From the NCBI GenBank assembly GCA_043818215.1, contig JBDRGC010000127.1:12832-76831 (forward strand): a DNA stretch of 64,000 nucleotides, read 5' to 3'. Numbering within the stretch: position 1 is the first letter of the stretch; each line of letters begins with the position of its first letter. Source of the stretch: Chloroflexota bacterium (lineage in GTDB: Bacteria > Chloroflexota > Anaerolineae > Anaerolineales > UBA11858). The translations under genes were made by a program, and so were the position numbers. This document shows, piece after piece, positions 9,658 to 41,909 of this stretch. A model generated the notes under the pieces. That model saw only the letters and a program-made list of their open reading frames with translations. It had not been told where the DNA came from and made no database searches.

Positions 9658-10575
9658 ATGCGCATTCTTATCACCGGCGCCAGCGGCCTGCTGGGTATCA
9701 ATCTGGCCCTGGAAGCCGCCGGCCAGCACACCGTTTTCGGAGTGGTTAATAGCCGCGGACTGAAAACCGAGGCCTTTACCGTCCTGCAAGCGGACTTGCT
9801 GGAACCTGGCGCGGTGGAACGTGTTCTTGATGAGAGCCAGCCCGATTGGGTGATCCACTGCGCCGCCCTGGCCAACCTGGAAGCCTGCGAAAAGCATCCG
9901 GCGTTGGCCCGGGAATTGAATACCGAAGTCCCCCGAAATCTGGCAGCCCAATGTCGGAATGGCGGAGCGCGCTTGTTGCACGTCTCCACGGACGCGGTAT
10001 TCGATGGTAAGCGCGGCGGCTACACAGAAGATGATTCCCCCAATCCGCTGGGCGTCTACTCCCGAACCAAACTCGAAGCTGAACACGCCGTAGCCGAGGC
10101 TTACCCCGAGGCGATCATCGCCCGCGTCAATCTCTTCGGCTGGAGTCTGACCGGTAAACGCAGTCTGGCCGAGTTTTTCTTTTACAATTTGCAAGCGGGT
10201 AAAAATTTGATGGGCTTCACCGATGTTTATTTCTCCCCCCTGTTGGTGAACGATATTGCTCACATTTTCATCAAAATGCTGAAAAAGGGCTTAGGCGGCT
10301 TGTATCACGTTGTCAGCAGTGAGAGCTTGAGTAAATATGAATTTGGTGTCGCTATTGCCCGGAAGTTCGGACTCGATTCCGAGTTGATTGCCCCCAGGTC
10401 AGTTTCGGATGCCGGCCTCGAGGCTGTCCGCTCCCCCAACTTGACTCTCAAGGTTGATAAACTTATCCACGCTTTGGGCGAATCTCCCCCCGGAATATCC
10501 CCAGCTTTAGAACGCTTTTACACCCTTTATCAACAGGGTTATCCACAGTTTCTTGGTAGGTTGGTAGGTTGGTAG
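9658..10575 (+). CDS. SDR-type sugar reductase, RmlD (dTDP-4-dehydrorhamnose reductase)-like
   Basis: MRILITGASGLLG Rossmann start and YSRTKLEAE (YxxxK). Its size and layout match the RmlD substrate-binding family. The last codons run into the TTGGTAGG array. Confidence 0.65.
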   Translation: MRILITGASGLLGINLALEAAGQHTVFGVVNSRGLKTEAFTVLQADLLEPGAVERVLDESQPDWVIHCAALANLEACEKHPALARELNTEVPRNLAAQCRNGGARLLHVSTDAVFDGKRGGYTEDDSPNPLGVYSRTKLEAEHAVAEAYPEAIIARVNLFGWSLTGKRSLAEFFFYNLQAGKNLMGFTDVYFSPLLVNDIAHIFIKMLKKGLGGLYHVVSSESLSKYEFGVAIARKFGLDSELIAPRSVSDAGLEAVRSPNLTLKVDKLIHALGESPPGISPALERFYTLYQQGYPQFLGRLVGW

Positions 10576-10668
10576 ATTGGTAGGTTGGTAGGTTGGTAGG
10601 TTGGTAAATTGGATCACCAATTTACCAATTTACCAATCTACCAATTCCCAATTTCCCAATCTACCAAT
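10553..10668. repeat. octamer array with inverted arms (TTGGTAGG x~7 / CCAATTTA-CCAATCTA x~6)
   Basis: The arms flank the centre GGATCACC near 10612 and the right arm is the reverse complement of the left. A long imperfect hairpin is predicted. Confidence 0.9.
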
Positions 10669-13056: not shown

Positions 13057-14193
13057 ATGCGCATTTTATACTTCTCCCGCGACTACACCACCCACGACCA
13101 CCGCTTCCTCTCGGCCCTGGCGAAGACGGAGCACGCGGTAGGCTCTCTGCGCCTGGAGCGCCGGGGACACCAGGTAGAAGATCGACCTCTGCCCCCGGAG
13201 ATCAAACAAATCCAGTGGGCGGGAGGCCAGTCCACGGCAGAATTCAGCGACGGCCCGCGGCTGGTTGCCGGTTTACGGAGAGTGATCGGCACCTTCGAGC
13301 CTGACCTGATCCAGGCCGGCCCTTTGCAACGATCCGCGTTTTTGGTGGCCCTGACAGGCTTCCACCCCCTGGTGAGCATGTCTTGGGGCTACGACCTGCT
13401 CATAGACGCGGATCGCAACCGCTGGTGGAATTGGGCGACGCGGTATACCCTCCGCCGCAGCGATGCTTTCGTGGGGGATTGTGACACCATCCGCAATCTC
13501 GCCATTCAGCACGGCATGACCCCCGACCGCATTGTTACTTTCCCCTGGGGCGCAAACCTCCAACGCTTTACTCCCCTAACCCCTGGCTCGCTCCCCGCTC
13601 CCCTCTCCCCTCTCTCCGCTCTCCGCACCCGTCTCGGCTGGGGTGACGACACCTTTGTGCTGCTCTCCACGCGCGGCTGGTCAGATATTTACGGCGTGGA
13701 AGATTTGGCGCGTGCCTTCGTGTGTGCTACCCGACAGCGACCGGAATTGCGCTTGCTGATGCTGGGCAACGGCCCGCTGGCCTCCACCATTCGGAGGATT
13801 TTCATTCGGGGCGGTGTGCAAGATCAAGTGCATTTTCCGGGGCAGGTAACCCAAGAGAATTTACCCAACTTCTACCGGGCCGCGGATTTGTACATCAGCA
13901 CTTCGCACAGTGATGGCACTTCTATTTCATTGCTCGAAGCATTGGCCTGCGGAACCCCCGTGCTGCTGGCTGATATTCCTGGCAATCAGGAATGGATTAG
14001 GGGTGAGGGCGTCGGCTGGCTGTTCCGCGATGGGGAGGTGGACTCACTCACGGAGGGGATTCTCCACGCCTGGGGTGCGCGGGAGCAGTTGCCCGCTATG
14101 GGCCGCGCCGCTCGTCATTTGGCAGAATCACGCGCCAACTGGGAAAAGAACTTCCTTAAGTTGTTCGAGGCCTGGGAAATCGCGCTATCGTGA
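13057..14193 (+). CDS. glycosyltransferase family 4 (GT-B, GT1-type C-terminal domain)
   Basis: The [24 protein letters not shown] (E-x7-E region) and [10 protein letters not shown] start are typical of GT4. Confidence 0.75.
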
Positions 14194-15035
14194 TCCCATC
14201 TCTGATCGTTCTATCCCATTATCAGGCTGAGTCTCTGATTCGTGCTAAGGGAAACACTGCGGCTGAAGTCTCCCCAGATTTAGGCTTGACCACGGTAACG
14301 GTCGCTCTGCAAAATGAAAAGATATGCTTCCCCAATGGCGAGTATCTTTCCTGGGGAGCTGTTGATGAAATCGCGGCTAACGAGAACAATTGCTTTGTGG
14401 TGGAAGGCGGGGATGTCACGGTTGTGCAAGCATTTTCCGAAACTTTCGAGCGGGTATACACTTTGTACCCCACAGAATCTGCTCCCACGATGCTGGTTTC
14501 AGGCTTGCCTATGCACCGCATCAAAGACACTGACCCCTGGCGCGATACGCAAAGCAAAATCAGGGCGATGGGGCGCGTGAGCGGGCAGGTGCTAGATACG
14601 GCAACCGGACTGGGCTATACTGCTATTATGGCCGCAAAAACCGCCGGCCAAGTGACAAGTATCGAGCTGGACCCGGCGGCGCAGGATATTGCCCGGCATA
14701 ATCCCTGGTCGCAGCCGCTGTTCGATAACCCCAAGATCACGCAGATCATCGGCGATACTTATGACGAAATCGAGGAATTCGACAGTAGCATGTTCTCTTG
14801 TATCATCCACGACCCACCGATGTTCAGGCTAGCGGGAGACTTGTATTCGTTAGCCTTTTACCGTCAGGCTTTTCGGGTGTTGAAACCGGGCGGGTGCATG
14901 TTTCATTATATCGGCAACCCGCACAGCAAGTCGGGCGGACGCGTCACCCGAGGGGTGATCCGGCGATTGCAAGAGGCCGGCTTTTTACGCATCACGCCCA
15001 GGCCGCAGGCATTTGGGGTGGTGGCGTATAAATGA
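14190..15035 (+). CDS. class I SAM-dependent methyltransferase (COG2521-like)
   Basis: Motif [13 protein letters not shown] and a later IIHDPPMF motif. It overlaps the upstream gene by 4 nt. Confidence 0.6.
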
Positions 15036-15224
15036 GTCCGCGAGTCAGCGAGTCAGCGAGTCGGCGAGTTGGCGAGTTGGCGAGTCAGCGAGTCGGCGAG
15101 TCAGCGAGTCAACGAGTCGGCGAGTCAGCGAGTTGGCGAGTTGGCGAGTTGGCGAGTCGGCGAAGTAGAAGATTGTCGAATCGCTGATTCGTTGATTCGT
15201 TGATTCGCTGACTCGCTGACTCAC
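15036..15224. repeat. octamer array (GCGAGTCA/GCGAGTTG/GCGAGTCG, ~16 units) with short inverted arm (GATTCGYT/GACTCGCT)
   Basis: Read directly. The array is stop-free, which generates the spurious ORF 15045..15239. Confidence 0.9.
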
Positions 15225-16092: not shown

Positions 16093-17433
16093 ATGCTAAA
16101 AGAAATTCTCACCCAACTCTATCCCCTCCACCGCACGCTGGCTTGCGACGGTACTGACGAAGCCTTGCGCATTGTCGGTGCGCAGATGCCCGCGGCCGCA
16201 GGATATGCTATCGAAACCTACACCCCCGGCGCGCCCGTTTGGACGTGGAAGGTGCCGGAGCGATACATAGTTCACGAGGCTTATCTTGAAACGGAGAACG
16301 GCCAGCGCATCGTAGATTTTGCCGACAACCCTCTGCATATCGTTTCGTATTCCCTGCCCATAGACAAACTTCTTACCTGGGATGAACTCGAATCCCACCT
16401 GTATTTCAGCGAGAAACTGCCCCACGCCATCCCCTGGATTTTCAAATATTATCAGCGCGATTGGGGATTCTGCCTGCCCAAAGACACCTTCGACAAGTTG
16501 CCGCGGGATACCCGTTACCGGGCTGTCATCCGCAGCGAGTTTGTCACCGATCCCGATCATGGATTCCGCATCTCAACGGGAGTCCTAACCCCTAACCTCC
16601 TAACCCCTAACCCCCAAACTCCTAACTCGTATAGTACTAACAACCCCGGCGAATTCTTCATCTCCTCCCACATCTGCCACCCCATGCAGGCCAACGATGA
16701 TGCTGCCGGAGTGGTGACGGCCATCGAAGTGGCCCGCCGCCTGGCAGAGAATCCGCTTCCCCCTGGGTCGATGTCGGTGCGCTTCTGGTTCGGCCCGGAG
16801 ACCATCGGCACCATCGCTTACCTGGCTCACCACGAAGACCTGATTCCCCAACTCAAGGGCGGCATCTTCGTGGAGATGACTGGCAACCGCAGCCCCATTG
16901 CCTGGCATCACAGCCGCCAACACGACCACCTGCTCGACCGCGTCACAGACTACGTTCTACGCAACACGGATCACGTCGAGCGCGATTTCGCCGCCCACCC
17001 CGCCAATGACGAACGCGTCATCAACGGCCCCGGCGTCAACGTGCCCTGCATCTCGATCAACCGCTGGCCCTACGATGAGTACCACACCAGCGATGACAAC
17101 CTTGACATCATCCACGAAGATATGCTCCAGGAAGCCGCCGACGTGATCGAAGAAATCGTGCGAATTTATGCCAGCAACTACATACCCAGGCGTACATTCC
17201 GCGGACCGGTGTTTCTCTCCGGTCACGGGCTGTGGGTCGATTGGCGCGATAATTGGGAACTCAACCGCGCCATCGAAAAAATTATGATGCGCTTCGAGGG
17301 ACAGCACAGCATTTTCGACATCGCCGAAGAGGTGGGCCTGGATTACTGGGTGGTGCGCGAATACGTCGAAAAATTCCGGGCTAAGGGTTTTGTGAAAGCG
17401 CTGCCTATTCCCGGCGAGTCTCCGGGTTCATAG
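16093..17433 (+). CDS. aminopeptidase-like domain protein of polysaccharide loci (DUF4910/COG4310-like) with C-terminal winged-helix
   Basis: 446 aa with the M28-like core HICHPMQANDDAAGV. It contains an in-frame heptamer array at 16584-16628. Confidence 0.6.
   Translation: MLKEILTQLYPLHRTLACDGTDEALRIVGAQMPAAAGYAIETYTPGAPVWTWKVPERYIVHEAYLETENGQRIVDFADNPLHIVSYSLPIDKLLTWDELESHLYFSEKLPHAIPWIFKYYQRDWGFCLPKDTFDKLPRDTRYRAVIRSEFVTDPDHGFRISTGVLTPNLLTPNPQTPNSYSTNNPGEFFISSHICHPMQANDDAAGVVTAIEVARRLAENPLPPGSMSVRFWFGPETIGTIAYLAHHEDLIPQLKGGIFVEMTGNRSPIAWHHSRQHDHLLDRVTDYVLRNTDHVERDFAAHPANDERVINGPGVNVPCISINRWPYDEYHTSDDNLDIIHEDMLQEAADVIEEIVRIYASNYIPRRTFRGPVFLSGHGLWVDWRDNWELNRAIEKIMMRFEGQHSIFDIAEEVGLDYWVVREYVEKFRAKGFVKALPIPGESPGS
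16584..16628. repeat. in-CDS heptamer array (CCTAACC)
   Basis: It encodes LTPNLLTPNPQTPN inside the DUF4910-like protein. Confidence 0.8.
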
Positions 17434-17447
17434 GGTATACTTGAAGC

Positions 17448-17819
17448 ATGAGCGCGACTTCGACACTTAAACCTATCGAAATGGATTTAGATACCTGGAA
17501 GACCAGTTTAGAATTGGAACTGGCGCGCTTTGTGGAGCTGGTCATCAATCGTTTCGATCCCCAGAGGATAATTTTATTTGGCTCATTAGCTCAGGATAAT
17601 CCAAAGGTTTGGTCAGATATTGATGTGATAGTCATTCGAGAAACGGATGCTCGTTTTATAGACCGCGGCCTGGAAATTCGGAGTGCATTTCATCCGCGAG
17701 TGGGCATGGATATTTTAGTTTATACTCCCGAAGAGTTCGAACACTTATGTGTTGAGCGGATATTCTTCCGACAAGAAATTCTTGAAAAAGGGAAGGTACT
17801 ATATGAGCAGCGCTACTAA
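17448..17819 (+). CDS. MNT-type nucleotidyltransferase antitoxin (copy A)
   Basis: The GS-x9-12-D-x-D motif (LFGSLAQDNPKVWSDIDV) is present. It is paired with a HEPN gene. Confidence 0.75.
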   Translation: MSATSTLKPIEMDLDTWKTSLELELARFVELVINRFDPQRIILFGSLAQDNPKVWSDIDVIVIRETDARFIDRGLEIRSAFHPRVGMDILVYTPEEFEHLCVERIFFRQEILEKGKVLYEQRY

Positions 17820-18201
17820 TTGGTTGCAATTTGCTCGTGAGGATCTCCGAGTAGCAGAATGGGCACTTGACGAGACAATTAATAATCAAGCTTGTTTTCA
17901 TTCGCAACAATGTGTGGAGAAATCTCTCAAAGCCTGGTTGGTGAGTCAGGGGAAAGCTCCGCCTCGCGTTCATCAGTTGGCGACACTGCTTTCATTGATC
18001 CCTGGTGAACTTGTAGATGATCTCATAGATGGTATTGAGCTTTTGGACCAATTTTATATCCCTACGCGTTATCCTGATGCGCTTGTAAGCTCGTTGCCTG
18101 ATGGTCCGCCAAGCGATCACCAAGCGAGGCATGCCGTAGTGACTGCTCGCAAAGTTCTCCAACGCGTCGAACAACATATTTCCACCCAACCATCCCGTTG
18201 A
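17803..18201 (+). CDS. HEPN-domain toxin (copy A)
   Basis: The FAREDLRVAE...FHSQQCVEKSLKA and IPTRYPD motifs are typical of HEPN. ATG at 17803. Confidence 0.75.
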   Translation: MSSATNWLQFAREDLRVAEWALDETINNQACFHSQQCVEKSLKAWLVSQGKAPPRVHQLATLLSLIPGELVDDLIDGIELLDQFYIPTRYPDALVSSLPDGPPSDHQARHAVVTARKVLQRVEQHISTQPSR

Positions 18202-18308
18202 TTCATCTCCCCTCACCCCTCACCCCTCTTCCCTCTCCAAATATCATCGCCATCGTCCAGGCCCGAATAGACTCTTCTCGCCTGCCGGGCAAAGTGCTGC
18301 TCGACATC
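18198..18308 (+). pseudogene. 5' fragment (~37 codons) of the SpsF-like cytidylyltransferase gene
   Basis: Near-identical to 20476-20586 (MIHLPSPL.PLPSPNIIAI.QAR.DSSRLPGKVLLDI). Similarity stops abruptly at 18308. Confidence 0.7.
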
Positions 18309-18654
18309 AGGGCGAGATACCCTGGCACCGCCCGCCATACCATCCAGGTACAGGACATCGTCCCGATACCTATGCAGGTACTGCGCACTTGCGCCGCACG
18401 CAGTGTAGGTGTGGAAACCTGTCCTGAGTGTATCGAAAGGTCTCGGCTATAGACCCTAACTTTTGAAGAGGATACAAAATTTTATTGTATTCCTTTACCC
18501 CTTCGGGGCACAGGTATGTGTTACTTCGTGCGCAGTGCCTGCATAGGTATACTTTGTGGTTGGCCCCTTTTTGGTTCCGGCCTGTCCCTGTGTATTTCGG
18601 GGGTATGTCCGGGTTAGAGTAGACTTGAAATAGATGTTTTGATATGCCGCTATT

Positions 18655-18981
18655 GTGCAGGAGGCGTTTATGTTAGTTGACACGCGATACGAACACGTAA
18701 TCATGGATGAAGCCAATGTGCCTATAATAACAGGGACAAATACTAAGGTAGTTGAACTTGTTTTGGATAATATTGCCTACGGTTGGAGTCCTGAAGAACT
18801 TCATTTCCAACATCCTGAGTTAACGTTAGGGCAGATATATTCGGCGCTATCTTACTACTGGGACCACAAAGAAGAGCTTGATCAAGACATCGAGCGTCGT
18901 CTTCAACGCGTCAACCATATTCGGGAAGCAGCGCAGCAACTACCCCTGGAAACCCGGTTGAAGACAGCGATGGCAGCCTGA
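18655..18981 (+). CDS. DUF433-domain protein (antitoxin-like)
   Basis: PIITGTNTKVVELV...GWSPEELHFQHPELTLGQIYSALSYY is the pattern of DUF433. The start could be 18670. Confidence 0.65.
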   Translation: MQEAFMLVDTRYEHVIMDEANVPIITGTNTKVVELVLDNIAYGWSPEELHFQHPELTLGQIYSALSYYWDHKEELDQDIERRLQRVNHIREAAQQLPLETRLKTAMAA

Positions 18982-19328
18982 TGGCGATCAAGTTTTACAT
19001 GGACCATCATGTGCCGCGCGCGATCACGAACGGCCTCCGGCTGCGTGATGTAAATGTGATAACTGCTTACGAAGATGGAACCAGCAGATTTGATGACCCA
19101 GACCTGTTGGATCGAGCGGGCGCATTAGGACGCGTGCTATTCACCCGCGATGATGATCTCCTCGTGGAGGCAGCCCGACGACAGCGAAGTGGCATTTCGT
19201 TTCAAGGTGTGATCTATGCTCATCAACTCCATGTCACCATAGGTGTTTGCATTCGTGATTTGGAAACCATTGCCAAGATTGGGGAATCTGACGATTTGAT
19301 GAGTGGAGTGATATTTTTGCCCCTTTAA
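18981..19328 (+). CDS. DUF5615-family PIN-like protein (toxin-like partner of DUF433)
   Basis: The KFYMDHHVPRAITNGLR...VLFTRDDDL pattern is present, and the start overlaps the DUF433 stop (ATGA-type overlap). Confidence 0.65.
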   Translation: MAIKFYMDHHVPRAITNGLRLRDVNVITAYEDGTSRFDDPDLLDRAGALGRVLFTRDDDLLVEAARRQRSGISFQGVIYAHQLHVTIGVCIRDLETIAKIGESDDLMSGVIFLPL

Positions 19329-19342
19329 AGTCGAATAACCTT

Positions 19343-19711
19343 TGGCCCTACGATGAGTACCACACCAGCGATGATAACCTTGACATAATCCACGAAGATA
19401 TGCTCCAGGGAGCCGCCGACGTGATCGAAGAAATCGTGCGAATTTATGCCAGCAACTACATCCCCAGGCGCACATTCCGCGGGCCGGTGTTTCTCTCCGG
19501 TCACGGGCTGTGGGTCGATTGGCGCGATAATTGGGAACTCAACCGCGCCATCGAAAAAATTATGATGCGCTTCGAGGGCCAGCACAGCATTTTCGACATC
19601 GCCGCAGACGTGGGTCTGGATTACTGGGTGGTGCGTGAATACGTCGAAAAATTTCGGGATAAGGCTCTTGTGAAAGCGCTGCCTATTCCCGGCGAGTCTC
19701 CGGGTTCATAG
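19343..19711 (+). pseudogene. 3' fragment (~122 codons) of the DUF4910-like gene
   Basis: Collinear with 17065-17433. By manual alignment about 6 of ~122 residues differ. It has no 5' part. Confidence 0.75.
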
Positions 19712-19725
19712 GGTATACTTGAACC

Positions 19726-20088
19726 ATGAGTACTTTACAGACCCTTGAACCAATTGAGATGGATTTGAATACATGGAAGGCTCGCCTGGAGTCCGAATTG
19801 GCGCGTTTTGTGGACTTAATTATCGAACATTTCTCGCCGAAGAAGATCATCTTATTTGGCTCATTCGCGGAAGGGAAACCGCGGATCTGGTCTGATATTG
19901 ATTTGGTAGTGATCAAAGAAACAGATGATCGCTTTCTGGATCGTTCGAAAGATTTACTTCCTTTACTGATGCCGCGTGTTGGCTTAGACCTCATTGTTTA
20001 CACGCCAGCAGAATTTGACCAATTATGCCAGGAACGTAAATTCTTCCAAGATGAAATCTTGGAAAAAGGGAAAGTGTTGTATGGGTAG
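19726..20088 (+). CDS. MNT-type nucleotidyltransferase antitoxin (copy B, diverged)
   Basis: LFGSFAEGKPRIWSDIDL motif. Clearly more diverged from copy A than the flanking segments are. Confidence 0.75.
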   Translation: MSTLQTLEPIEMDLNTWKARLESELARFVDLIIEHFSPKKIILFGSFAEGKPRIWSDIDLVVIKETDDRFLDRSKDLLPLLMPRVGLDLIVYTPAEFDQLCQERKFFQDEILEKGKVLYG

Positions 20089-20479
20089 CCCCACTGATTG
20101 GCTTTATTTTGCTCGTGAAGATCTTCGTGTGGCAGAATTGACGCTATCGAATGAGATTTACAACCAGGTATGTTTCCACTCTCAACAATGTTGTGAGAAG
20201 GCTCTCAAAGCCTGGCTTGCTCATCAAGGTATTGAATCGCCGAGAAAACATCAATTGAGTGTGCTATTGGCCCTTTCGACGATTGATATTTTTGCAGAGT
20301 TAGGTGGGGATATCGTTCGTCTTGATCGTTTTTACATTCCCACTCGCTATCCTGACGTGCTGGCAGGTTCACTTCCTGAGGGACTTCCAAATAAAGCAAA
20401 TGCCGAGGAAGCTATTGATACTGCTCGCAAAGTTCTCCACCGCGTCGAACAACATATTTCCACCCAACCCTCCCGTTGA
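20081..20479 (+). CDS. HEPN-domain toxin (copy B, diverged)
   Basis: FAREDLRVAE...FHSQQCCEKALKA and IPTRYPD motifs. The last ~19 residues are nearly identical to copy A. Confidence 0.75.
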   Translation: MGSPTDWLYFAREDLRVAELTLSNEIYNQVCFHSQQCCEKALKAWLAHQGIESPRKHQLSVLLALSTIDIFAELGGDIVRLDRFYIPTRYPDVLAGSLPEGLPNKANAEEAIDTARKVLHRVEQHISTQPSR

Positions 20480-21405
20480 TTCATCTCCCCTCACCTCTCT
20501 CCCCTCTTCCCTCTCCAAATATCATTGCCATCATTCAGGCTCGCATGGACTCATCACGCTTGCCGGGAAAAGTGCTGCTCGATATCGGCGGTCGTCCGAT
20601 GCTCCAGTGGGTCGTCGAGCGCACCCGCCGCGCCAAAACCGTGGACGAAGTCATCGTCGCCACCACCACCGACCCATCCGACGATGCCGTAGCCCAATTT
20701 TGCGAGGCCAAAGGTTACCCCGTCACCCGCGGCAGCATCCACGATGTGCTGGATCGCTACTACCAGACCGCCCGGCAATTCAAAGCCGACGTCATCGTGC
20801 GCATCACTGCCGATTGTCCGCTGATTGACCCCGCGCTGGTGGACGGGACGGTGTTCTCGTTATTTGAGATTGGAGATTGGAGATTGAAAGCCGAATCTCC
20901 AATCTCAAATCTCAAATCCCCGATTTTTGACTTCGTCGCCAACCGCCTCCCGCCTCCCTGGGGACGCACCTACCCCATCGGCCTCGACACCGAAGTTTTT
21001 ACATTCGATGCTCTGGAACGTGCCTGGAAGCGAGCTATCGCCAGACACCACCGCGAACATGTCACCCCCTATTTTTACGAAGACACTCCTGTCGATCATT
21101 TGAAATTCAGTGTGCAGGGATCGGAATTTTCCAGCGCCATGACACTTGATGGACTCCACATCGCCTTGCTCCACCACGACCCCGACTACGGCCGCCTGCG
21201 CTGGACGGTGGACACCCCCGCGGATTTGGAACTGGTGCGCGCTATTGTGGCCCATTTCGATAGCCGCGACGACTTCACCTGGCAGGATGTGCTGGCTATC
21301 TTCGAGCGCGAGCCGGAACTGGCGCAAATCAACGCCAGCGTGCGGCACAAGACACACTTGGATGTGGACGATAGGTCAGTAAATCAGGAAGCAGTAAATC
21401 AGTAA
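20476..21405 (+). CDS. cytidylyltransferase-domain protein (SpsF/PseF-like CMP-sugar synthetase family)
   Basis: IIQARMDSSRLPGKVLLDIGGRPML is the N-terminus typical of the SpsF/COG1861 family. The start codon is uncertain (TTG at 20476). It contains an in-frame array at 20866-20919, and its tail (NQEAVNQ) is array-encoded. Confidence 0.7.
   Translation: MIHLPSPLSPLPSPNIIAIIQARMDSSRLPGKVLLDIGGRPMLQWVVERTRRAKTVDEVIVATTTDPSDDAVAQFCEAKGYPVTRGSIHDVLDRYYQTARQFKADVIVRITADCPLIDPALVDGTVFSLFEIGDWRLKAESPISNLKSPIFDFVANRLPPPWGRTYPIGLDTEVFTFDALERAWKRAIARHHREHVTPYFYEDTPVDHLKFSVQGSEFSSAMTLDGLHIALLHHDPDYGRLRWTVDTPADLELVRAIVAHFDSRDDFTWQDVLAIFEREPELAQINASVRHKTHLDVDDRSVNQEAVNQ
20866..20919. repeat. in-CDS inverted heptamer array (GAGATTG x3 / AATCTCC-AATCTCA)
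   Basis: It encodes EIGDWRLKAESPISNLKS inside the cytidylyltransferase. Confidence 0.8.
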
Positions 21406-21588
21406 ATCAGGAAACCAGGAAACCAGGAATCAGTAGATCAGGATGCCAGGGAAGACTGATTTACTGATCTACTGATCTACTGATCTACTGATCTACTGAT
21501 TTACTGATCTACTGATTTACTGATCTACTGATCTACTGATTTACTGATTTACTGATCTACTGATCTACTGATCTACTGATCTACTAAC
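21376..21588. repeat. octamer arrays with inverted arms (CAGTAAAT/CAGGAAAC then CTACTGAT/TTACTGAT x~18)
   Basis: Read directly. It spans the stop of the upstream CDS and ends 3 nt before the next ATG. Confidence 0.9.
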
Positions 21589-21591
21589 CTC

Positions 21592-22551
21592 ATGCCCTCC
21601 CTCACCATCTTCACCGCCCCCAAACCATTCACCGACCCGCATATCAACATCATCCAGCGCAATGCCATCCAATCGTTGCTGCATTTGAATGATAGTGTTG
21701 CTCCAGGCGAGTCCGTGACTCGCCGGCCTGGGCACGCCCCCGATCACGGATCGGCTGGGAGCAACCCGGTGCAAGTTATTCTGGTTGGCGATGAAGACGG
21801 TCTGGCTGAGACCGCGGCGGAATTTGCCGTGTTGCATCTGCCAGATGTGGCGCGCAACGAATGGGGCACGCCGTTGGTCAGCTCGATTTTTGCCCTGGCG
21901 CGTGAGGCCAGTGAGGGACCGCTGCTGGCTTATGTCAACGCCGATATTTTGCTGAGGCCCGATTTTGTGGAGACAGCCCGCACAGTAGCCTCTCAGGTCG
22001 AGAAATTTCTGGTGGTGGGGCAGCGCTGGGATCTGGCTGTCACGCAGGACTTGGCCTTCACCCCAAACTGGGATCAGCGGCTCCGGGTGGAGGTTCAGTC
22101 CCGAGGGGAATTGCACGCCCCTGCGGGCAGCGATTATTTCATCTTCCCCCGGTCAATTTTCACAGATATACCCGATTTCGCCATCGGCCGCGCTGGCTGG
22201 GATAATTGGATGATCTATTGCGCTCTGCAAAACCGCTGGCCGGTGGTGGATGCCACCGCAGCGTTGATGATCGTGCATCAAAACCACGATTACAGTCATC
22301 TGCCCGGCGGCGTGGCTCACTACGATCTCGAAGAGACGCAGATCAATGCTTCCCTGGGGGGCGGGATGCGCAATATGTACATGACTCTGGACGCCAGCCA
22401 TGAATTTGTGGGGGGACGGGTGCGGCGGGCGCGCCCCAGCCGGGCACGTATCCTGCGGAGGTTAGAGCGGTGGATGTACCCAGTTTTGCGCACAGGCATA
22501 CGCTGGACTTTCACCCGTTACCTGCGGCGTTGGCGTCGCAAAGTGATGTGA
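21592..22551 (+). CDS. hypothetical protein, possibly GT-A-like glycosyltransferase
   Basis: A 319-aa ORF with good coding character. Only weak resemblance (SDYFIFPRS...GRAGWDNW) to glycosyltransferase-like proteins. Confidence 0.3.
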   Translation: MPSLTIFTAPKPFTDPHINIIQRNAIQSLLHLNDSVAPGESVTRRPGHAPDHGSAGSNPVQVILVGDEDGLAETAAEFAVLHLPDVARNEWGTPLVSSIFALAREASEGPLLAYVNADILLRPDFVETARTVASQVEKFLVVGQRWDLAVTQDLAFTPNWDQRLRVEVQSRGELHAPAGSDYFIFPRSIFTDIPDFAIGRAGWDNWMIYCALQNRWPVVDATAALMIVHQNHDYSHLPGGVAHYDLEETQINASLGGGMRNMYMTLDASHEFVGGRVRRARPSRARILRRLERWMYPVLRTGIRWTFTRYLRRWRRKVM

Positions 22552-28179: not shown

Positions 28180-29385
28180 ATGAAATTTCTCATCGCCGGC
28201 TTCGGCTCCATCGGACGCCGCCACTTTCGTAATTTGCTTGCTTTGGGTGAGCGTGACATTGTGTTCCTGCGCAGCAAGCGGAGCACTCTGCCCGATGCCG
28301 AGATAGCCGCTTTCCCCGTGGAGACTGATATTCAAGCTGCGCTGGCACACAAGCCGGATGCGGTGATTGTCTCGAATCCCACGTCGCTGCATTTGGATGT
28401 GGCCCTCCCGGCGGCGGAAGCGGGCTGCCACATTTTTTTGGAGAAGCCCATCTCCCATTCGATGGAGCGCGTGGACGAATTGCAGGCCGCAGTCCAGCGC
28501 GGGGGCGGGCAGGTGCTCGTCGGCTTCCAATTTCGCTTTCACCCCAGCCTGGGCCTCATCAAACAATGGTTGTCGGGCAACCACGCCCCACGCTCCACGC
28601 CTCACGCTCCACCCCCCACGCCCCATGCTCTACGCTCCACGCCACACCCCCCACGCCCCATGCTCCACGCCTCACGCTCCACGCCCCACGCTCCACGCTC
28701 CACGCCCCACCACACCCCACGCCCCACGCACCACTCCCCACTCCCCGCGCCCCCAATCTCCAATCTCCAATCTCTAATCTCCAATCCCCACTCCCCCATC
28801 GGCCGGCCCCTTTCCGCCCGCGCCCACTGGGGCGAATATCTCCCCGGCTGGCATCCCTGGGAAGATTATCGGCAGGGGTACAGCGCGCGGGCAGATTTGG
28901 GAGGCGGCGTGATTCTGACACTTTGCCATCCTTTGGATTATCTGCGCTGGTTGTTGGGTGATGTGACAGGATTGTGGGCGTTTACGGGAAAGGCCGGCGA
29001 TTTGGAGTTGGCAGTCGAAGATACTGCTGAAATCGGGCTTCATTTCGCCAGCGGAGTGATTGGCAGTGTGCATCTGGATTATAATCAACGCCCCCCGTCC
29101 CATCACTTGGAAATTGTGGGAACTCATGGAACCATCCGCTGGGACAATGCCGACGGCGCGGTGCATATCTATCGTGCCTCTTCTGATGAATGGGGCATTT
29201 ACCCGCTTCCGCAGGGGTTCGAGCGCAACCAATTGTTCCGGGATCAGATGAAGCATTTCTTAGCGGTCGTGGGTGAGGGCGAGCAGCCTGTCTGTACTCT
29301 CGAAGATGGTGTGTGGGCATTAAGGCTGGCATTGGCCGCGCACGAGTCGGCTCGAAAAGGGGAAGTTATTACTTGGGCAGCGTGA
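28180..29385 (+). CDS. Gfo/Idh/MocA-family oxidoreductase carrying a ~70-aa array-encoded insertion
   Basis: The N-terminal Rossmann domain (MKFLIAGFGSIGRRH, EKP motif) and the C-terminal Gfo-type domain are separated by the low-complexity stretch HAPRSTPHAP...PISNLQS. Confidence 0.75.
   Translation: MKFLIAGFGSIGRRHFRNLLALGERDIVFLRSKRSTLPDAEIAAFPVETDIQAALAHKPDAVIVSNPTSLHLDVALPAAEAGCHIFLEKPISHSMERVDELQAAVQRGGGQVLVGFQFRFHPSLGLIKQWLSGNHAPRSTPHAPPPTPHALRSTPHPPRPMLHASRSTPHAPRSTPHHTPRPTHHSPLPAPPISNLQSLISNPHSPIGRPLSARAHWGEYLPGWHPWEDYRQGYSARADLGGGVILTLCHPLDYLRWLLGDVTGLWAFTGKAGDLELAVEDTAEIGLHFASGVIGSVHLDYNQRPPSHHLEIVGTHGTIRWDNADGAVHIYRASSDEWGIYPLPQGFERNQLFRDQMKHFLAVVGEGEQPVCTLEDGVWALRLALAAHESARKGEVITWAA
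28580..28796. repeat. in-CDS heptamer arrays (CACGCCC/CACGCTC ~24 units, then CCAATCT ~5 units)
   Basis: Read directly. It is open in all three forward frames and two reverse frames (ORF track 28180.., 28367.., 28566.., 28559..28921, 28602..28799). Confidence 0.9.
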
Positions 29386-35852: not shown

Positions 35853-35982
35853 GGTTGAGAAAATCACAATATTAACATCCAATCTCCAATCTCCAGTCCC
35901 CAATCTCCAATTACCAGGTTCTGGTCCTCATCCCTGCCCGCGGCGGCTGGACGATGTAGTGAGGCAGAATGCATCGGGGAAC

Positions 35983-37065: not shown

Positions 37066-37190
37066 TCCAATCTCCAATCTCTAATCTCTAATCTCCAATC
37101 TCCAATCCCCAACCTCCCATGTACAATCCCCAATCCCCAATCTCCAATCTCCATTCTCCAATCTCCATTCTCCATTCTCCAATCTCCAAT
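37066..37190. repeat. heptamer array (CCAATCT and variants, ~17 units)
   Basis: Read directly. It contains the only in-frame ATG (37119) of the NeuA-like ORF. Confidence 0.9.
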
Positions 37191-37931
37191 TACCAGGTTC
37201 TGGCCCTCATCCCCGCCCGCGGCGGATCGAAATCCATCCCCCGCAAGAATATCATCGACTTTGCCGGCCACCCGCTGATCGCTTACAGTATCGCCGCAGG
37301 ACTGGCCGCCGAGACTGTGACGCGGGTGATCGTCTCCACCGATGACGATGAGATCGCCGCCATCTCCCGCCGCTGCGGGGCCGAGACTCCCTTTCTGCGT
37401 CCTGCGGAACACTCTCTCGACAACACCCCCGACCTGCCCGTCTTCCGGCAGGCCCTGGAATGGCTGGCCGACAACGAAGGCTACTGCCCGGACATCGTCG
37501 TCCAACTGCGGCCCACTTCCCCTTTCCGTCGCGTTTGGCATATCGACCAGGCTGTCTTGCGGCTCATCGAGCACCCCGAAGCCGACGCGGTGCGCACCGT
37601 CTGTGTGCCCTTCCAGAACCCCTTCAAAATGTGGCGCATCGCCCCCGACGGGTTAATGCAGCCCCTCGGAACCGAGCTGGGCATCCCCCGCGAGCCATAC
37701 AACCAGCCCCGGCAAGCCCTCCCCGAAGTCTACTGGCAGACCGGCTACGTCGATGCTGCCTGGGCCGACACCATTCTCTCGAAGAATTCCATGACCGGGG
37801 ACGCAATCCTACCCCTGGTCATCGACCCCTCCGAATGGGTGGACATCGACTCTCCCAATGATTGGCGCAGGGCGGAGAGACTGTTGGAGAGCGGGGAGGT
37901 TACTTTGGATGATCTAGGTTTTTCTATTTAG
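37119..37931 (+). CDS. acylneuraminate cytidylyltransferase family (NeuA/LegF/PseF-like CMP-nonulosonate synthetase)
   Basis: LIPARGGSKSIPRKNI N-terminal motif and the CTP_transf_3 layout. The first ~25 codons are array-encoded, so the true start is uncertain. Confidence 0.8.
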   Translation: MYNPQSPISNLHSPISILHSPISNYQVLALIPARGGSKSIPRKNIIDFAGHPLIAYSIAAGLAAETVTRVIVSTDDDEIAAISRRCGAETPFLRPAEHSLDNTPDLPVFRQALEWLADNEGYCPDIVVQLRPTSPFRRVWHIDQAVLRLIEHPEADAVRTVCVPFQNPFKMWRIAPDGLMQPLGTELGIPREPYNQPRQALPEVYWQTGYVDAAWADTILSKNSMTGDAILPLVIDPSEWVDIDSPNDWRRAERLLESGEVTLDDLGFSI

Positions 37932-38322
37932 GAATCAGTAGGTCAGTAGATCAGTAGATCAGTAAATCAGGGATCAGTAGATCAGTAAATTAGTAAATCA
38001 GTAGATCAGTAAATCAGGAATCAGTGGATCAGGGAGCAGTAGATCAGGAATATAATCAGGGTTTCCTGATTTCCTGATTTCCTGGTTTCCGGATTTCCTG
38101 ATTTACTGATTTCCTGATTTACTGATTTACTGATTTCCTGATTTCCTGATTTCCTGGTTTCCTGATTTCCTGATTTCCTGGTTTCCTGATTTCCTGGTTT
38201 CCTGGTTTCCTGGTTTCCTGATTTCCTGGTTTCCTGGTTTCCTGATTTCCTGGTTTCCTGGTTTCCTGGTTTCCTGATTTCCTGGTTTCCTGGTTTCCTG
38301 GTTTCCTAGTTTCCTAGTTTCT
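37931..38322. repeat. largest array in the window (~390 bp): CAGTAGAT/CAGTAAAT arm then TTTCCTGA/TTTCCTGG arm
   Basis: About 48 octamer units can be read directly, with an orientation switch near 38055. It generates the spurious ORF 38127..38411. Confidence 0.9.
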
Positions 38323-39076: not shown

Positions 39077-39262
39077 GGGGACTGGTAAATTGGGGAGTGG
39101 TAAATTGGTAAATTGGGGATTGGTAAATTGGTAAACTGGGGACTGGTGATTGGTTCCCAGCTTACCAACCTACCAATCTACCAATCTACCAACCTACCAA
39201 CCTACCAATCTACCAATCTACCAATCTACCAATCTACCAACCTACCACTCCCCAATTCCCAA
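39077..39262. repeat. octamer arrays with inverted arms (TGGTAAAT/TGGGGACT then CCAATCTA/CCAACCTA)
   Basis: Read directly, ending 5 nt before the kinase ATG. Confidence 0.9.
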
Positions 39263-40813: not shown

Positions 40814-41809
40814 ATGAAAAGACCACTCAGCATCATAATTCCATGCTTCAATGAACAAGCCACTATTCGTTTGCTGCTGGACGCCATCTACGCGCAAACG
40901 TATCCCCGCGAACAGATAGAAGTGATTATTGCCGACGGCATTTCCACGGATGATACCCGCGCAGAGATTCGCGCTTTCCAGCAAACCCATCCAGACCTGA
41001 ACATCGAAGTGGTAGATAACCTGAAGCGCAATATTCCTGCGGGGCTTAACCGAGCCATCGAGGCTGCTGGCGGAGAGTTCATCGTGCGGCTGGATGCTCA
41101 CTCTGTGCCCCACAATGATTACGTTTCCCGGTGCTTGGCTGCTTTAGATGCCGGCCTGGGCGACAACGTCGGAGGGGTGTGGGAAATCCAGCCCTCGGAG
41201 CCGGGATGGGTGGCACGTTCCATTGCGGCTGCGGCAGCCCACCCACTTGGCGTGGGCGATGCCAGTTACCGGGTCGGCGGCCAGCCACAAGCCGTAGATA
41301 CGGTTCCCTTTGGGGCCTTCCGCCGCGCATTGACTGATCGCATAGGCCTTTTTGATGAGACTTTGCTTTCCAATGAAGATTATGAGTTCAACGTTCGGGT
41401 GCGCCAATCGGGGGGCACTGTTTGGATGGACCCTGCAATCCGCTCGCAATACTTTGCGCGTCCTAACCTGCGGGCGCTTGCCAAACAGTATTGGCGCTAC
41501 GGGTATTGGAAATTGTGTATGCTGAGACGTTTCCCGGAGACGTTTCGTTGGCGGCAGCTTTCGGGGGCCTTCGTGCTTACCTGGTTGGTTTTAGGTATAC
41601 TTGCAATTTGGTTCCCTGTGGCTCAGTGGCTCCTGTCGGCGGAGGCTATCATTTACAGTCTAGCCCTGGCAATGGCCGGAGCGCAGACTGCTGTGAAAAA
41701 CCGTGATCTGGCGATGTTGGTTGGCGTGCCTCTGGCAATTGCAACCATGCACTTCGCCTGGGGAACAGCGTTTTTGTGGAGTTTGTTGAAATCGGTGATT
41801 GGAGATTAG
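40814..41809 (+). CDS. glycosyltransferase family 2 with C-terminal TM helices (ExoA-like layout)
   Basis: LSIIIPCFNE, ADGISTDDT and RLDAHS motifs. ATG at 40814. Confidence 0.75.
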   Translation: MKRPLSIIIPCFNEQATIRLLLDAIYAQTYPREQIEVIIADGISTDDTRAEIRAFQQTHPDLNIEVVDNLKRNIPAGLNRAIEAAGGEFIVRLDAHSVPHNDYVSRCLAALDAGLGDNVGGVWEIQPSEPGWVARSIAAAAAHPLGVGDASYRVGGQPQAVDTVPFGAFRRALTDRIGLFDETLLSNEDYEFNVRVRQSGGTVWMDPAIRSQYFARPNLRALAKQYWRYGYWKLCMLRRFPETFRWRQLSGAFVLTWLVLGILAIWFPVAQWLLSAEAIIYSLALAMAGAQTAVKNRDLAMLVGVPLAIATMHFAWGTAFLWSLLKSVIGD

Positions 41810-41909
41810 AGATTGGAGATTGGATACTGGAGATTGGAGATTAGAGACTGGAGACCGTAGACGGAAATTGAGACTGGAAATCTCTAATCCCTAATCTCCA
41901 ATCTCCAAT
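41795..41909. repeat. inverted heptamer arrays (GAGATTG/GAGACTG then AATCTCY)
   Basis: Read directly. It overlaps the GT2 stop. Confidence 0.85.

What the first reader, a model, noticed from the sequence alone, without database searches (positions are those of the whole stretch)
20866..20919. An inverted (hairpin-capable) heptamer array lies inside the SpsF-like cytidylyltransferase ORF
GAGATTG x3, a 7-nt spacer, then AATCTCC/AATCTCA x3 are read through as EIGDWRLKAESPISNLKS. Unlike the other in-CDS arrays, this one keeps the two-arm inverted architecture. The mRNA would therefore carry a stem-loop inside the coding region, with possible ribosome pausing or RNase cleavage. The DNA could form a cruciform at a site prone to deletion.
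Basis: partly seen in the sequence, partly recalled or inferred. Interest (0 to 1): 0.55.

Follow-up and report, generated by a model that had tools for sequence, protein, structure and literature searches.

The report
Translated heptamer hairpin repeat inside an enzyme gene
A small hairpin-forming block of 7-base repeats, one of dozens scattered through this Anaerolineales genome, sits in frame in a flexible surface loop of an intact sugar-activating enzyme gene and is translated as about 17 extra amino acids; it looks like tolerated repeat DNA, and nothing found here points to a dedicated regulatory role.

Summary
GAGATTG x3 (20866-20886), spacer AAAGCCG, then AATCTCC/AATCTCA/AATCTCA (20894-20914) lie inside ORF 20476-21405, an intact CTP_transf_3 (SpsF-like) cytidylyltransferase gene. 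They are read as EIGDWRLKAESPISNLKS. The stretch 20862-20917 folds into a 23-bp stem with one mismatch (RNA -33.7 kcal/mol, z -5.1; DNA -21.5, z -5.9).

It belongs to a window-wide population of 7/8-nt tandem arrays: 54 arrays, 5.1% of bases, about 17 of them inverted pairs, nearly all intergenic. It is the only inverted pair inside a conserved coding sequence.

The insert occupies a hypervariable loop. Minimal orthologs have 31 aa between TADCP and ANRL; the window has 48. AlphaFold confidence is low exactly there.

None of 13 minimal ortholog loops contains heptamers. At least 13 of 24 extended loops do, with different units. L070 has another strong two-arm form. L069 and L131 carry decayed two-arm forms of the same length as the window's.

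Best reading: tolerated, translated repeat DNA kept repeat-like by slippage or template switching (insert GC 38% against 59.5% for the gene). Ribosome pausing, RNase cleavage and cruciform-driven deletion are physically plausible but untested. The hairpin is not conserved across orthologs. New variant of a known kind; moderate interest.

The parts
20862..20886 (+). Left arm: ATTT + GAGATTG x3 (register ATTTGAG ATTGGAG ATTGGAG ATTG), translated as (F)EIGDWRL
20887..20893 (+). 7-nt spacer AAAGCCG. In the fold the hairpin loop is 20886-20893. Translated within K-A-E.
20894..20919 (+). Right arm: AATCTCC AATCTCA AATCTCA AATCC, the reverse complement of the left-arm unit family. Translated as SPISNLKS.
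20862..20917 (+). Predicted stem-loop or cruciform: 23 bp, one G/A mismatch. RNA -33.7 kcal/mol (z -5.1); DNA -21.5 kcal/mol (z -5.9).
20866..20916 (+). About 51 nt (17 codons, roughly residues 131-147) that are extra relative to minimal orthologs (31 aa against 48 aa between TADCP and ANRL). The exact boundaries cannot be resolved. GC is 38% against 59.5% for the rest of the gene.
20476..21405 (+). Host gene: SpsF-like cytidylyltransferase (Pfam CTP_transf_3). It is intact, and every column that is invariant across the alignment A1 is by definition kept in it. Its TTG start overlaps the stop of the upstream HEPN gene.
20484..20516 (+). TCTCCCC x4.7 array, translated as the N-terminal extension [13 protein letters not shown]. 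No other ATG, GTG or TTG start precedes the conserved IAIIQAR strand.
21376..21585 (+). Large two-arm 8-mer element (TCAGTAAA x8.5, then ACTGATCT x16.4). It supplies the last 9 codons and the TAA stop of the gene, and it fills the whole spacer before the next gene at 21592.
41795..41909 (+). Intergenic two-arm element of the same GAGATTG/AATCTCC unit family. Single-arm copies lie at 28753-28790, 35878-35911 and 37066-37190.

Best explanation
The feature is one copy of this genome's pervasive short-tandem-repeat hairpin elements. These are arrays of 7- or 8-nt units followed by an array of the complementary unit, comparable to cyanobacterial STRR or long-SSR heptamers and to the 'inverted repeat pairs' of Xanthomonas.

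This copy lies in frame in a hypervariable, structurally tolerant surface loop of a functional SpsF-like cytidylyltransferase. It is transcribed and translated with the gene as a 17-18 aa, probably disordered, insert.

It survives for two reasons:
- The unit GAGATTG and its complement contain no stop codon in any frame.
- The total inserted length is a multiple of three.

The insert is probably old. Same-length decayed versions are found in two other lineages. In the window lineage it has stayed repeat-like and self-complementary. I infer this is due to replication slippage and hairpin-templated strand switching (quasi-palindrome correction) or conversion from sister arrays.

The mRNA stem-loop and the DNA cruciform potential are physical by-products. 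At most they tax expression slightly or raise the indel rate. No dedicated regulatory role is needed.

Shown: the anatomy, the loop location, the family membership and the recurrence in orthologs. Inferred: the homogenisation mechanism and the near-neutrality.
For: Family context:
- The window holds 54 period-7/8 arrays covering 5.1% of its bases. About 17 are inverted pairs with strong hairpins. 25 of 50 gene junctions carry arrays.
- The same unit family recurs at 28753, 35878, 37066 and 41795.

The host gene is real and intact:
- Pfam CTP_transf_3 scores E 4e-35.
- Every column that is invariant across the alignment A1 is by definition kept in the window protein.
- The AlphaFold model has mean pLDDT 87 and matches 6oew with target-normalised TM 0.91.

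The site is tolerant:
- The only low-confidence parts of the model are residues 1-10, 131-150 and 301-309. These are the three repeat-derived stretches.
- 6oew aligns on both sides and skips the insert.

Recurrence in orthologs:
- All 13 minimal ortholog loops (29-31 aa) are repeat-free.
- At least 13 of 24 extended loops show heptamer periodicity with different units: CTCCAAC, CAATTGC, ACTGACC, AGTCACC, TTCACTx, CCAATAT.
- L070 carries an independent strong two-arm form (z -4.3 to -4.8).

Age of the insert:
- L069 and L131 align with the window codon for codon without gaps.
- Insert nucleotide identity is 0.56-0.63, against 0.62-0.71 for the whole gene.
- They keep 13 and 16 of the 23 stem pairs, where about 8.6 is expected at random.

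Renewal in the window lineage:
- A 23-bp stem keeping at least 22 pairs after that much divergence has probability about 1-2 in 1000.
- Insert GC is 38% and GC3 39%, against 59.5% and 64% for the gene.

Frame compatibility:
- The unit is stop-free in both orientations.

No sign of a dedicated element:
- No terminator-like site was called and no Rfam family matched.
Against: No closely related genome was available; the best non-self homolog is 73% identical. Slippage, homogenisation and neutrality are therefore inferred, not observed.

The near-perfect stem could equally reflect selection on the structure.

In the neighbour-joining tree built without the loop, the window sits next to short-loop sequences (the P0012 group), not next to P0040 (L069) or P0047 (L131). 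Common ancestry of the insert would then require later losses or replacements. Independent acquisition of a 3+3-unit element at the same site is not excluded.

No expression data exist.
Confidence: 0.68

Rival explanations
1. The stem-loop is a selected mRNA element inside the coding region. It might act as a translational pause between the N-terminal nucleotide-binding half and the C-terminal half of the enzyme, or as a double-strand-specific RNase (RNase III-type) cleavage site that tunes expression of this gene or the operon.
For: The stem is long (23 bp) and stable. It is better preserved than neutral divergence predicts if the insert is old. A second lineage, L070, keeps a strong hairpin at the same protein position using different units. 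Two G-C to U-A double changes appear in L131.
Against: Only 2 of 24 extended loops fold significantly. Most orthologs carry single-arm arrays or no repeat. L069 and L131 have let the stem decay. Covariation with three sequences is not significant: 118 of 500 shuffles do as well for pairs with a change on both sides. The same architecture fills intergenic spacers all over the window regardless of gene, so the architecture is not specific to this gene. No Rfam match and no terminator call were obtained.
Confidence: 0.12
2. The array is a contingency (phase-variation) switch. Gain or loss of one 7-nt unit shifts the frame and turns a surface-polysaccharide gene off; a later slip turns it on again.
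For: A change of +/-1 unit produces stops at residue 135 or 154. The gene lies in a polysaccharide-biosynthesis cluster in which several other genes also carry in-frame heptamer arrays. Heptamer repeats are known slippage substrates (Mrazek 2007, as cited in PMC4679880 and PMC4692102).
Against: There are only three units per arm, and the array is mid-gene instead of near the 5' end. Every ortholog examined is in frame. The one independent assembly has the identical copy number. No variant allele was found in metagenome contigs.
Confidence: 0.07
3. A recent insertion of a small mobile hairpin element (MITE-, REP- or RPE-like) moved as a unit into the gene. It was not inherited or grown in place.
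For: The insert is a compositional outlier (GC 38% against 59.5%). Its repeats are nearly perfect. The same unit family is present at four other places in the window. The closest relatives on the tree lack it. Rickettsia palindromic elements provide a precedent for in-frame palindromic insertions (PMC10969869).
Against: No target-site duplication or terminal-repeat signature can be recognised at the borders (direct reading). Copies of the family differ freely in unit number and unit variants, and do not share a fixed consensus. Same-length, codon-aligned, decayed versions in L069 and L131 point to inheritance. No transposase was linked, although this was not searched systematically.
Confidence: 0.1
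4. The feature is a chance similarity or an assembly artefact.
For: Repeats are a common cause of misassembly. The Logan contig ends inside the flanking arrays.
Against: There are 36 matches against 0.58 expected. The fold z-scores are -5 to -6. The reading frame is intact through the element, with conserved domain sequence on both sides. An independent contig is identical. Homologous inserts exist in other genomes.
Confidence: 0.02

Closest known systems
Inverted pairs of heptameric simple-sequence repeats in Xanthomonas (GGGAATC) and GGGGA(T/C)T repeats in Nostoc PCC 7120 (Rehm et al. 2015, PMC4692102)
   Same: Both have 7-nt units in short tandem arrays spread over the genome. In Xanthomonas, 70-75 cases consist of two arrays in convergent orientation that can form stem-loops or cruciforms. 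They lie mostly between co-directional ORFs, and copy number varies between relatives. Variants of the window family (GGGGATT at 37124-37144) are identical to the Nostoc unit.
   Different: The published repeats are G-quadruplex-capable (G3-4 tracts) and under-represented in coding regions. The unit here, GGAGATT, has only GG. Both arms lie inside a conserved CDS and are translated. The host is an Anaerolineales (Chloroflexota) bacterium, for which my literature searches found no description of such repeats.
Cyanobacterial STRR and long SSRs of prokaryotes (the Calothrix PCC 7601 heptanucleotides, ref. 39 of PMC4692102; Mrazek 2007, as cited in PMC4679880 and PMC4692102)
   Same: Both are heptanucleotide tandem repeats of several unit families, abundant in filamentous bacteria, mostly intergenic, and attributed to polymerase slippage.
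   Different: A systematic two-arm (inverted) architecture and in-frame residence in enzyme loops are not part of the STRR description.
Rickettsia palindromic elements (RPE), described in the review PMC10969869
   Same: Both are palindromic, hairpin-capable repeated elements found in frame inside unrelated metabolic genes. Both are translated as a peptide insert judged compatible with the protein fold.
   Different: RPEs are about 150-bp elements with family consensus sequences that encode a conserved peptide. The element here is 51-58 nt, built from 7-nt units, and has no fixed consensus. Mobility was not shown.
Tandem repeats creating disordered protein regions in Borg elements (PMC9879509; only title and abstract seen)
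   Same: In both, tandem nucleotide repeats arise within ORFs and are read as new, likely disordered protein segments that evolve fast.
   Different: Borg repeats are direct repeats only, with longer and more varied units, in archaeal extrachromosomal elements. They have no inverted arm.
REP/BIME extragenic palindromes and SSR contingency loci
   Same: Like REP/BIME, the elements are abundant hairpin repeats at gene junctions. Like contingency loci, a slip of a unit whose length is not a multiple of three would frameshift the gene.
   Different: REPs are single 20-40 nt palindromes with a conserved tetranucleotide tag and an associated RAYT transposase. Contingency loci usually have long arrays near the 5' end and show on/off alleles. 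Neither was seen here.

Membership tests
Heptameric tandem repeat (long SSR / STRR-type) | A unit of 7 nt repeated head to tail at least about 3 times | tested here: met
   TRF finds 20862-20886 with 3.6 copies and 20894-20918 with 3.6 copies, both at 94% matches.
Heptameric tandem repeat (long SSR / STRR-type) | The same unit family is dispersed at many loci of the genome, far above chance | tested here: met
   36 matches against 0.58 expected. There are 54 period-7/8 arrays in 64 kb.
Inverted heptamer-repeat pair (Xanthomonas type, PMC4692102) | Two arrays of complementary units in convergent orientation and close proximity, able to form a stem-loop | tested here: met
   The spacer is 7 nt and the stem is 23 bp with z -5.1 as RNA and -5.9 as DNA.
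Inverted heptamer-repeat pair (Xanthomonas type, PMC4692102) | A G-rich GGGNATC unit with at least 4 G-tracts, capable of G-quadruplex formation | tested here: not met
   The unit GGAGATT has G-runs of only 2, and there are three units per arm.
Inverted heptamer-repeat pair (Xanthomonas type, PMC4692102) | Intergenic location, under-represented in coding sequence | tested here: not met
   This copy lies inside a conserved CDS with domain sequence on both sides. The rest of the window's two-arm elements are intergenic.
MITE / RPE-like mobile palindromic element | Terminal inverted repeats flanked by a target-site duplication | tested here: inconclusive
   No direct repeat is recognisable at the borders by reading. 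However, the borders cannot be placed to the base, because empty-site orthologs are at most about 68% identical at the nucleotide level.
MITE / RPE-like mobile palindromic element | Copies share a full-length consensus of fixed size | tested here: not met
   Family copies range from 33 to 125 nt with free variation in unit number and unit variants.
MITE / RPE-like mobile palindromic element | A cognate transposase in the genome, or presence/absence polymorphism between close strains | not testable with these tools
   Only a 64-kb window is available, and no close relative exists in the collections.
Intrinsic transcription terminator | A G+C-rich stem directly followed by a T-run | tested here: not met
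   No terminator-like site was called at 20850-20935. Only 9 of the 26 pairs in the predicted fold of 20856-20924 are G-C. TTTTT starts 7 nt after the main stem.
Known structured RNA family (Rfam 15) | A match at the family's gathering score | tested here: not met
   There are 0 matches in the window at gathering thresholds. Only generic miRNA-precursor hairpin hits far below threshold (26 bits against 100) were found.
SSR contingency (phase-variation) locus | Repeat-number changes shift the reading frame | tested here: met
   In silico, +/-1 unit gives a stop at residue 135 or 154.
SSR contingency (phase-variation) locus | On and off alleles are observed within or between populations | tested here: not met
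   The independent contig is identical. No variant was found in metagenome contigs. All orthologs are in frame. Read-level data were not available.
CTP_transf_3 cytidylyltransferase (host gene) | Pfam PF02348 above the gathering score, and the fold of CMP-sugar synthetases | tested here: met
   122 bits against a cut-off of 22.6. Foldseek finds 6oew at E 3e-23 with TMt 0.91. NCBIfam KdsB and PseF equivalog models all score below their cut-offs, so the substrate is unknown.

The most novel reading that the evidence does not exclude
Anaerolineales may possess an active process that seeds and continually re-homogenises inverted heptamer arrays. The process could be hairpin-templated repair, or a dedicated enzyme.

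The process would operate even inside coding sequence. One surface loop of an SpsF-like enzyme would then have been a resident hairpin-repeat site since before these lineages diverged, with unit sequences turning over while length and frame are kept.

A corollary is that the many in-frame heptamer arrays in this polysaccharide-synthesis cluster act as frameshift switches or as RNase-processing sites. That would amount to a previously unrecognised layer of gene control or protein-loop innovation in a free-living filamentous Chloroflexota bacterium.
Probability: 0.12. Interest if true: 0.7.

Novelty: new variant of a known kind. Interest (0 to 1): 0.42.

Why it matters
The case shows that short hairpin-forming tandem repeats, normally confined to intergenic DNA, can settle in frame in enzyme surface loops. 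In one gene family of Anaerolineales, repeat-bearing loops account for at least 13 of 24 extended loops, and none of 13 minimal loops carries repeats.

This gives a concrete, datable case for studying three things:
- how repeat DNA creates new protein segments;
- how inverted arrays stay complementary over time;
- how much a 23-bp stem inside a CDS costs in expression.

It also warns annotators. In such genomes, stop-free arrays extend ORFs at both ends and supply start-proximal and stop codons.

The single instance is not a discovery of a new mechanism. The genome-wide phenomenon in Chloroflexota appears to be undescribed and is the more interesting target.

Tried and rejected
1. Intrinsic terminator or promoter at the site: nothing was called.

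2. Known RNA family: none matched at gathering score. Only sub-threshold generic hairpin (miRNA precursor) hits appeared.

3. Alleles with other copy numbers: an exact-flank pattern with a variable gap found nothing in metagenome contigs. The only other occurrence, a Logan contig, is identical.

4. RNA-level selection inferred from G.U asymmetry of the window's two-arm elements: some fold better on the + strand and others on the - strand, irrespective of gene direction. This gives no consistent signal.

5. Covariation test on window, L069 and L131: only 2 double changes, not distinguishable from shuffles.

6. Target-site duplication at the insert borders: none recognisable by reading. The borders are not resolvable.

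7. Assigning the enzyme to KdsB or PseF: all NCBIfam equivalog scores are far below their cut-offs.

8. Antisense ORF 20760..20969 (-): it mirrors the peptide because of the palindrome, has no support, and is treated as a mechanical ORF.

9. Literature search for a description of such repeats in Anaerolineae or Chloroflexi: none found in the held library.
Full report
OBSERVATION

The sequence is exactly as described. GAGATTG x3 lies at 20866-20886. The spacer AAAGCCG lies at 20887-20893. AATCTCC, AATCTCA and AATCTCA lie at 20894-20914, followed by AATCC. TRF reports two 3.6-copy arrays at 20862-20886 and 20894-20918. The + strand ORF 20476..21405 reads straight through them as ...VFSLF EIGDWRL KAE SPISNLKS PIFDF....

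The pattern is not chance. The double unit, with up to 2 mismatches, occurs 36 times in the window against 0.58 expected. The stretch 20850-20935 folds at -33.7 kcal/mol as RNA (z -5.1; 0 of 200 shuffles as good) and at -21.5 kcal/mol as DNA (z -5.9).

The stem is 20862-20871/20908-20917 plus 20873-20885/20894-20906. That is 23 pairs with one G/A mismatch and an 8-nt loop. Its outer four pairs use the host codons TTA TTT.

A public contig assembled independently (Logan SRR26275510) is 100% identical over 20170-21429.

THE HOST GENE

The ORF is a CTP_transf_3 cytidylyltransferase (Pfam E 4e-35). JGI names its homologs SpsF. NCBIfam KdsB and PseF models score far below their cut-offs, so the substrate is unknown.

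All close homologs come from Anaerolineales metagenome-assembled genomes. The best non-self match is 73% identical, and no GTDB representative exceeds 68%.

The gene is intact. Every column that is invariant across the alignment A1 is by definition kept in the window protein. The AlphaFold model has mean pLDDT 87 and superposes on the Leptospira cytidylyltransferase 6oew with target-normalised TM 0.91.

The only low-confidence parts of the model are residues 1-10, 131-150 (134-140 below 50) and 301-309. These are the three stretches encoded by repeat arrays:
- the N-terminal extension, from TCTCCCC x4.7 (20484-20516);
- the internal insert;
- the C-terminal tail and TAA stop, supplied by the TCAGTAAA array that begins at 21376.

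TTG 20476 overlaps the HEPN stop. It is the only ATG, GTG or TTG start that retains the conserved IAIIQAR strand.

IS IT AN INSERTION?

Against 6oew, the query segment 132-161 (30 aa) faces 12 residues. I measured the distance between the conserved motifs TADCP and ANRL. It is 29-31 aa in 13 distinct 'minimal' orthologs and 48 aa in the window. About 17 codons are therefore extra.

The nearest relatives are not empty, however. One large group has a conserved 20-aa loop (..TGSLELRAKLS..) and another has a 12-aa loop (..GGRTRTPR..). Across 120 homologs the loop ranges from 7 to 31 aa. The site is a long-standing hypervariable loop.

THE SAME LOOP IN OTHER GENOMES

This is the most informative result. 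None of the 13 minimal loops shows 7-nt periodicity. Of 24 longer loops with DNA in hand, at least 13 do, and with different units:
- CTCCAAC/TTCCAAC x7 in L002;
- CAATTGC in L003 and L005;
- ACTGACC/ACTGTCC in L004, L006, L007, L008 and L010;
- AGTCACC followed by ACTGCTC in L077;
- TTCACTx in L015;
- CCAATAT in L131.

L070 has another two-arm form (TAATTGG.../CCAATxx...) with z -4.3 to -4.8.

L069 and L131 have loops of exactly the window's length, and they align with it codon for codon without gaps. L069 reads AGGATTGGAGAT...AAATCTCCATCC...CTCCAATCT. L131 reads TATTAGG x2...CCAATAT x2. Threaded onto the window's stem, they keep 13 and 16 of 23 pairs, against about 8.6 expected at random. 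L131 also shares the window's gene order DUF4910 - nucleotidyltransferase - HEPN - SpsF.

Nucleotide identity inside the insert (0.56-0.63) is about that of the whole gene (0.62-0.71). The simplest reading is an old two-arm insert inherited by these lineages.

Two facts complicate this reading:
- In a neighbour-joining tree built without the loop, the window groups with short-loop sequences, not with P0040 (L069) or P0047 (L131). Losses, replacements or independent colonisation cannot be excluded.
- The window's copy is far too perfect for an old, freely drifting sequence. The probability of keeping at least 22 of 23 pairs after that divergence is about 1-2 in 1000. Its composition is repeat-like (GC 38%, GC3 39%), not gene-like (59.5% and 64%).

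GENOMIC CONTEXT

The window is a polysaccharide-biosynthesis cluster containing RmlD-like, epimerase, glycosyltransferase and a second, PseF-like cytidylyltransferase genes. It is saturated with 7/8-nt arrays: 54 arrays covering 5.1% of bases. 25 of 50 gene junctions carry arrays.

About 17 arrays form inverted pairs, with hairpins of -32 to -173 kcal/mol. Nearly all lie between co-directional genes.

Other arrays are truly inside genes, at inter-domain linkers:
- 210 nt (CCACGCC x24 plus CCAATCT x5) between the two domains of a GFO/IDH/MocA oxidoreductase;
- 42 nt between the two halves of a GT4/GT1 glycosyltransferase;
- further arrays in the DUF4910 and melibiase-like genes.

None of these has a complementary arm.

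A two-arm array can be read through only if the unit and its complement are both stop-free in all frames. GAGATTG satisfies this, whereas many other units in the window do not.

MECHANISM

I commit to the following, at about 0.68 confidence.

Shown:
- The element is a member of the genome's tandem-repeat hairpin population.
- It sits in frame in a tolerant loop of a functional enzyme and is translated.

Inferred:
- It is near-neutral passenger DNA.
- Its arrays and the complementarity of its arms are renewed by replication slippage and intramolecular template switching (quasi-palindrome correction, an established mutational mechanism, named here from my own knowledge), or by conversion from sister arrays.
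- The hairpin in the mRNA and the cruciform potential in DNA are consequences, not purposes.

Against a dedicated regulatory role:
- The strong hairpin is present in only 2 of 24 extended loops.
- It has decayed in L069 and L131.
- Covariation is not significant.
- The site resembles neither a terminator nor any Rfam family.

A contingency-switch reading is physically possible, since +/-1 unit gives a stop at residue 135 or 154. It has no allelic support, and three units per arm is short for frequent slippage.

COMPARISON WITH KNOWN SYSTEMS

The closest description is that of Rehm et al. 2015 (PMC4692102). They report heptameric GGGAATC repeats in Xanthomonas, 70-75 of which form 'inverted repeat' pairs able to make stem-loops or cruciforms. 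They also report GGGGA(T/C)T repeats in Nostoc PCC 7120. Both are mostly intergenic and under-represented in coding regions. Variants of the window's unit (GGGGATT) are identical to the Nostoc unit. The present unit, however, lacks G3 tracts and lies in a CDS.

Heptanucleotide SSRs as the commonest long SSR class, and the slippage explanation for them, go back to Mrazek 2007 as cited in PMC4679880 and PMC4692102.

In-frame palindromic elements tolerated in enzymes are known from Rickettsia (RPE; PMC10969869). Those are about 150-bp consensus elements.

Tandem repeats creating disordered protein segments are described for Borgs (PMC9879509; only title and abstract seen).

I found no description of such repeats in Anaerolineae or Chloroflexota in the held library.

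VERDICT

The feature is a new variant of a known kind, namely an inverted heptamer-repeat pair residing in frame in a protein loop. Interest is moderate. The recurrence of heptamer arrays in the orthologous loop across Anaerolineales, and the genome-wide two-arm repeat system itself, deserve more attention than this single instance.

Noticed in passing
window 28581-28790 (ORF 28180-29385, +): 210 nt of heptamer repeats (CCACGCC x24, then CCAATCT x5) are read in frame as a roughly 70-aa linker. The linker lies between the NAD-binding domain (residues 2-116) and the C-terminal domain (residues 207-397) of a GFO/IDH/MocA oxidoreductase. This is a much larger translated array than the one in the finding.
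   Followed up: partly
window 13589-13630, 16584-16626, 59680-59752: There are further in-frame heptamer arrays at inter-domain positions. They lie in a GT4/GT1 glycosyltransferase, in the DUF4910/M28-like gene, and just before the melibiase domain of an 896-aa ORF on the - strand.
   Followed up: partly
window 17053-18308 and 19331-20586: A segmental duplication of about 1.25 kb (81-91% identity) covers the 3' end of the DUF4910 gene, a nucleotidyltransferase/HEPN pair, the TCTCCCC array and the first ~70 nt of the SpsF-like gene. The upstream copy leaves a truncated SpsF 5' fragment (ORF 18198-18452). Two small ORFs (18655-18981 and 18981-19328) lie between the copies.
   Followed up: partly
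window 20476-20530 and 21376-21405: Repeat arrays supply coding sequence at both ends of the same gene. The N-terminal extension [13 protein letters not shown] comes from TCTCCCC x4.7, with the TTG start overlapping the HEPN stop (GTTGA). The last nine codons and the TAA stop come from the TCAGTAAA array. Stop-free arrays will mislead ORF callers in this genome.
   Followed up: partly
window, whole (e.g. 10553-10668, 15034-15219, 21376-21585, 37934-38321, 39083-39247): About 17 giant two-arm 7/8-mer hairpin elements (up to about 400 nt and -173 kcal/mol) fill most spacers between co-directional genes, often leaving no room for a promoter or ribosome-binding site. The arms often differ by transitions, so one strand's RNA folds much better through G.U pairs, but with no consistent relation to gene direction.
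   Followed up: partly
L015:3533-3579: An Anaerolineaceae ortholog of the same enzyme carries a second in-gene heptamer array (CACTGAA/CACTGTA x6.7). Its position (about 530 nt into the gene) appears to fall near the second indel-prone region of the alignment (around window residues 205-215), although L015 itself was not aligned. This would suggest that arrays colonise whichever loops tolerate them.
   Followed up: no
L070:2098-2154; L005:603-627: Related genomes carry arrays of the same unit families outside the gene: CCAATCCA x6 directly downstream of the SpsF ortholog in L070, and TCCAATC x3.6 in L005. The unit families are therefore shared across Anaerolineales genomes, and the junction after SpsF is occupied by different units in different genomes.
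   Followed up: no
window 37066-37190 / ORF 37119-37931: A second cytidylyltransferase gene, closest to PseF but below the NCBIfam cut-off, is preceded by a TCCAATC x17.9 array of the same unit family as the finding. The array overlaps the gene's nominal 5' end.
   Followed up: no
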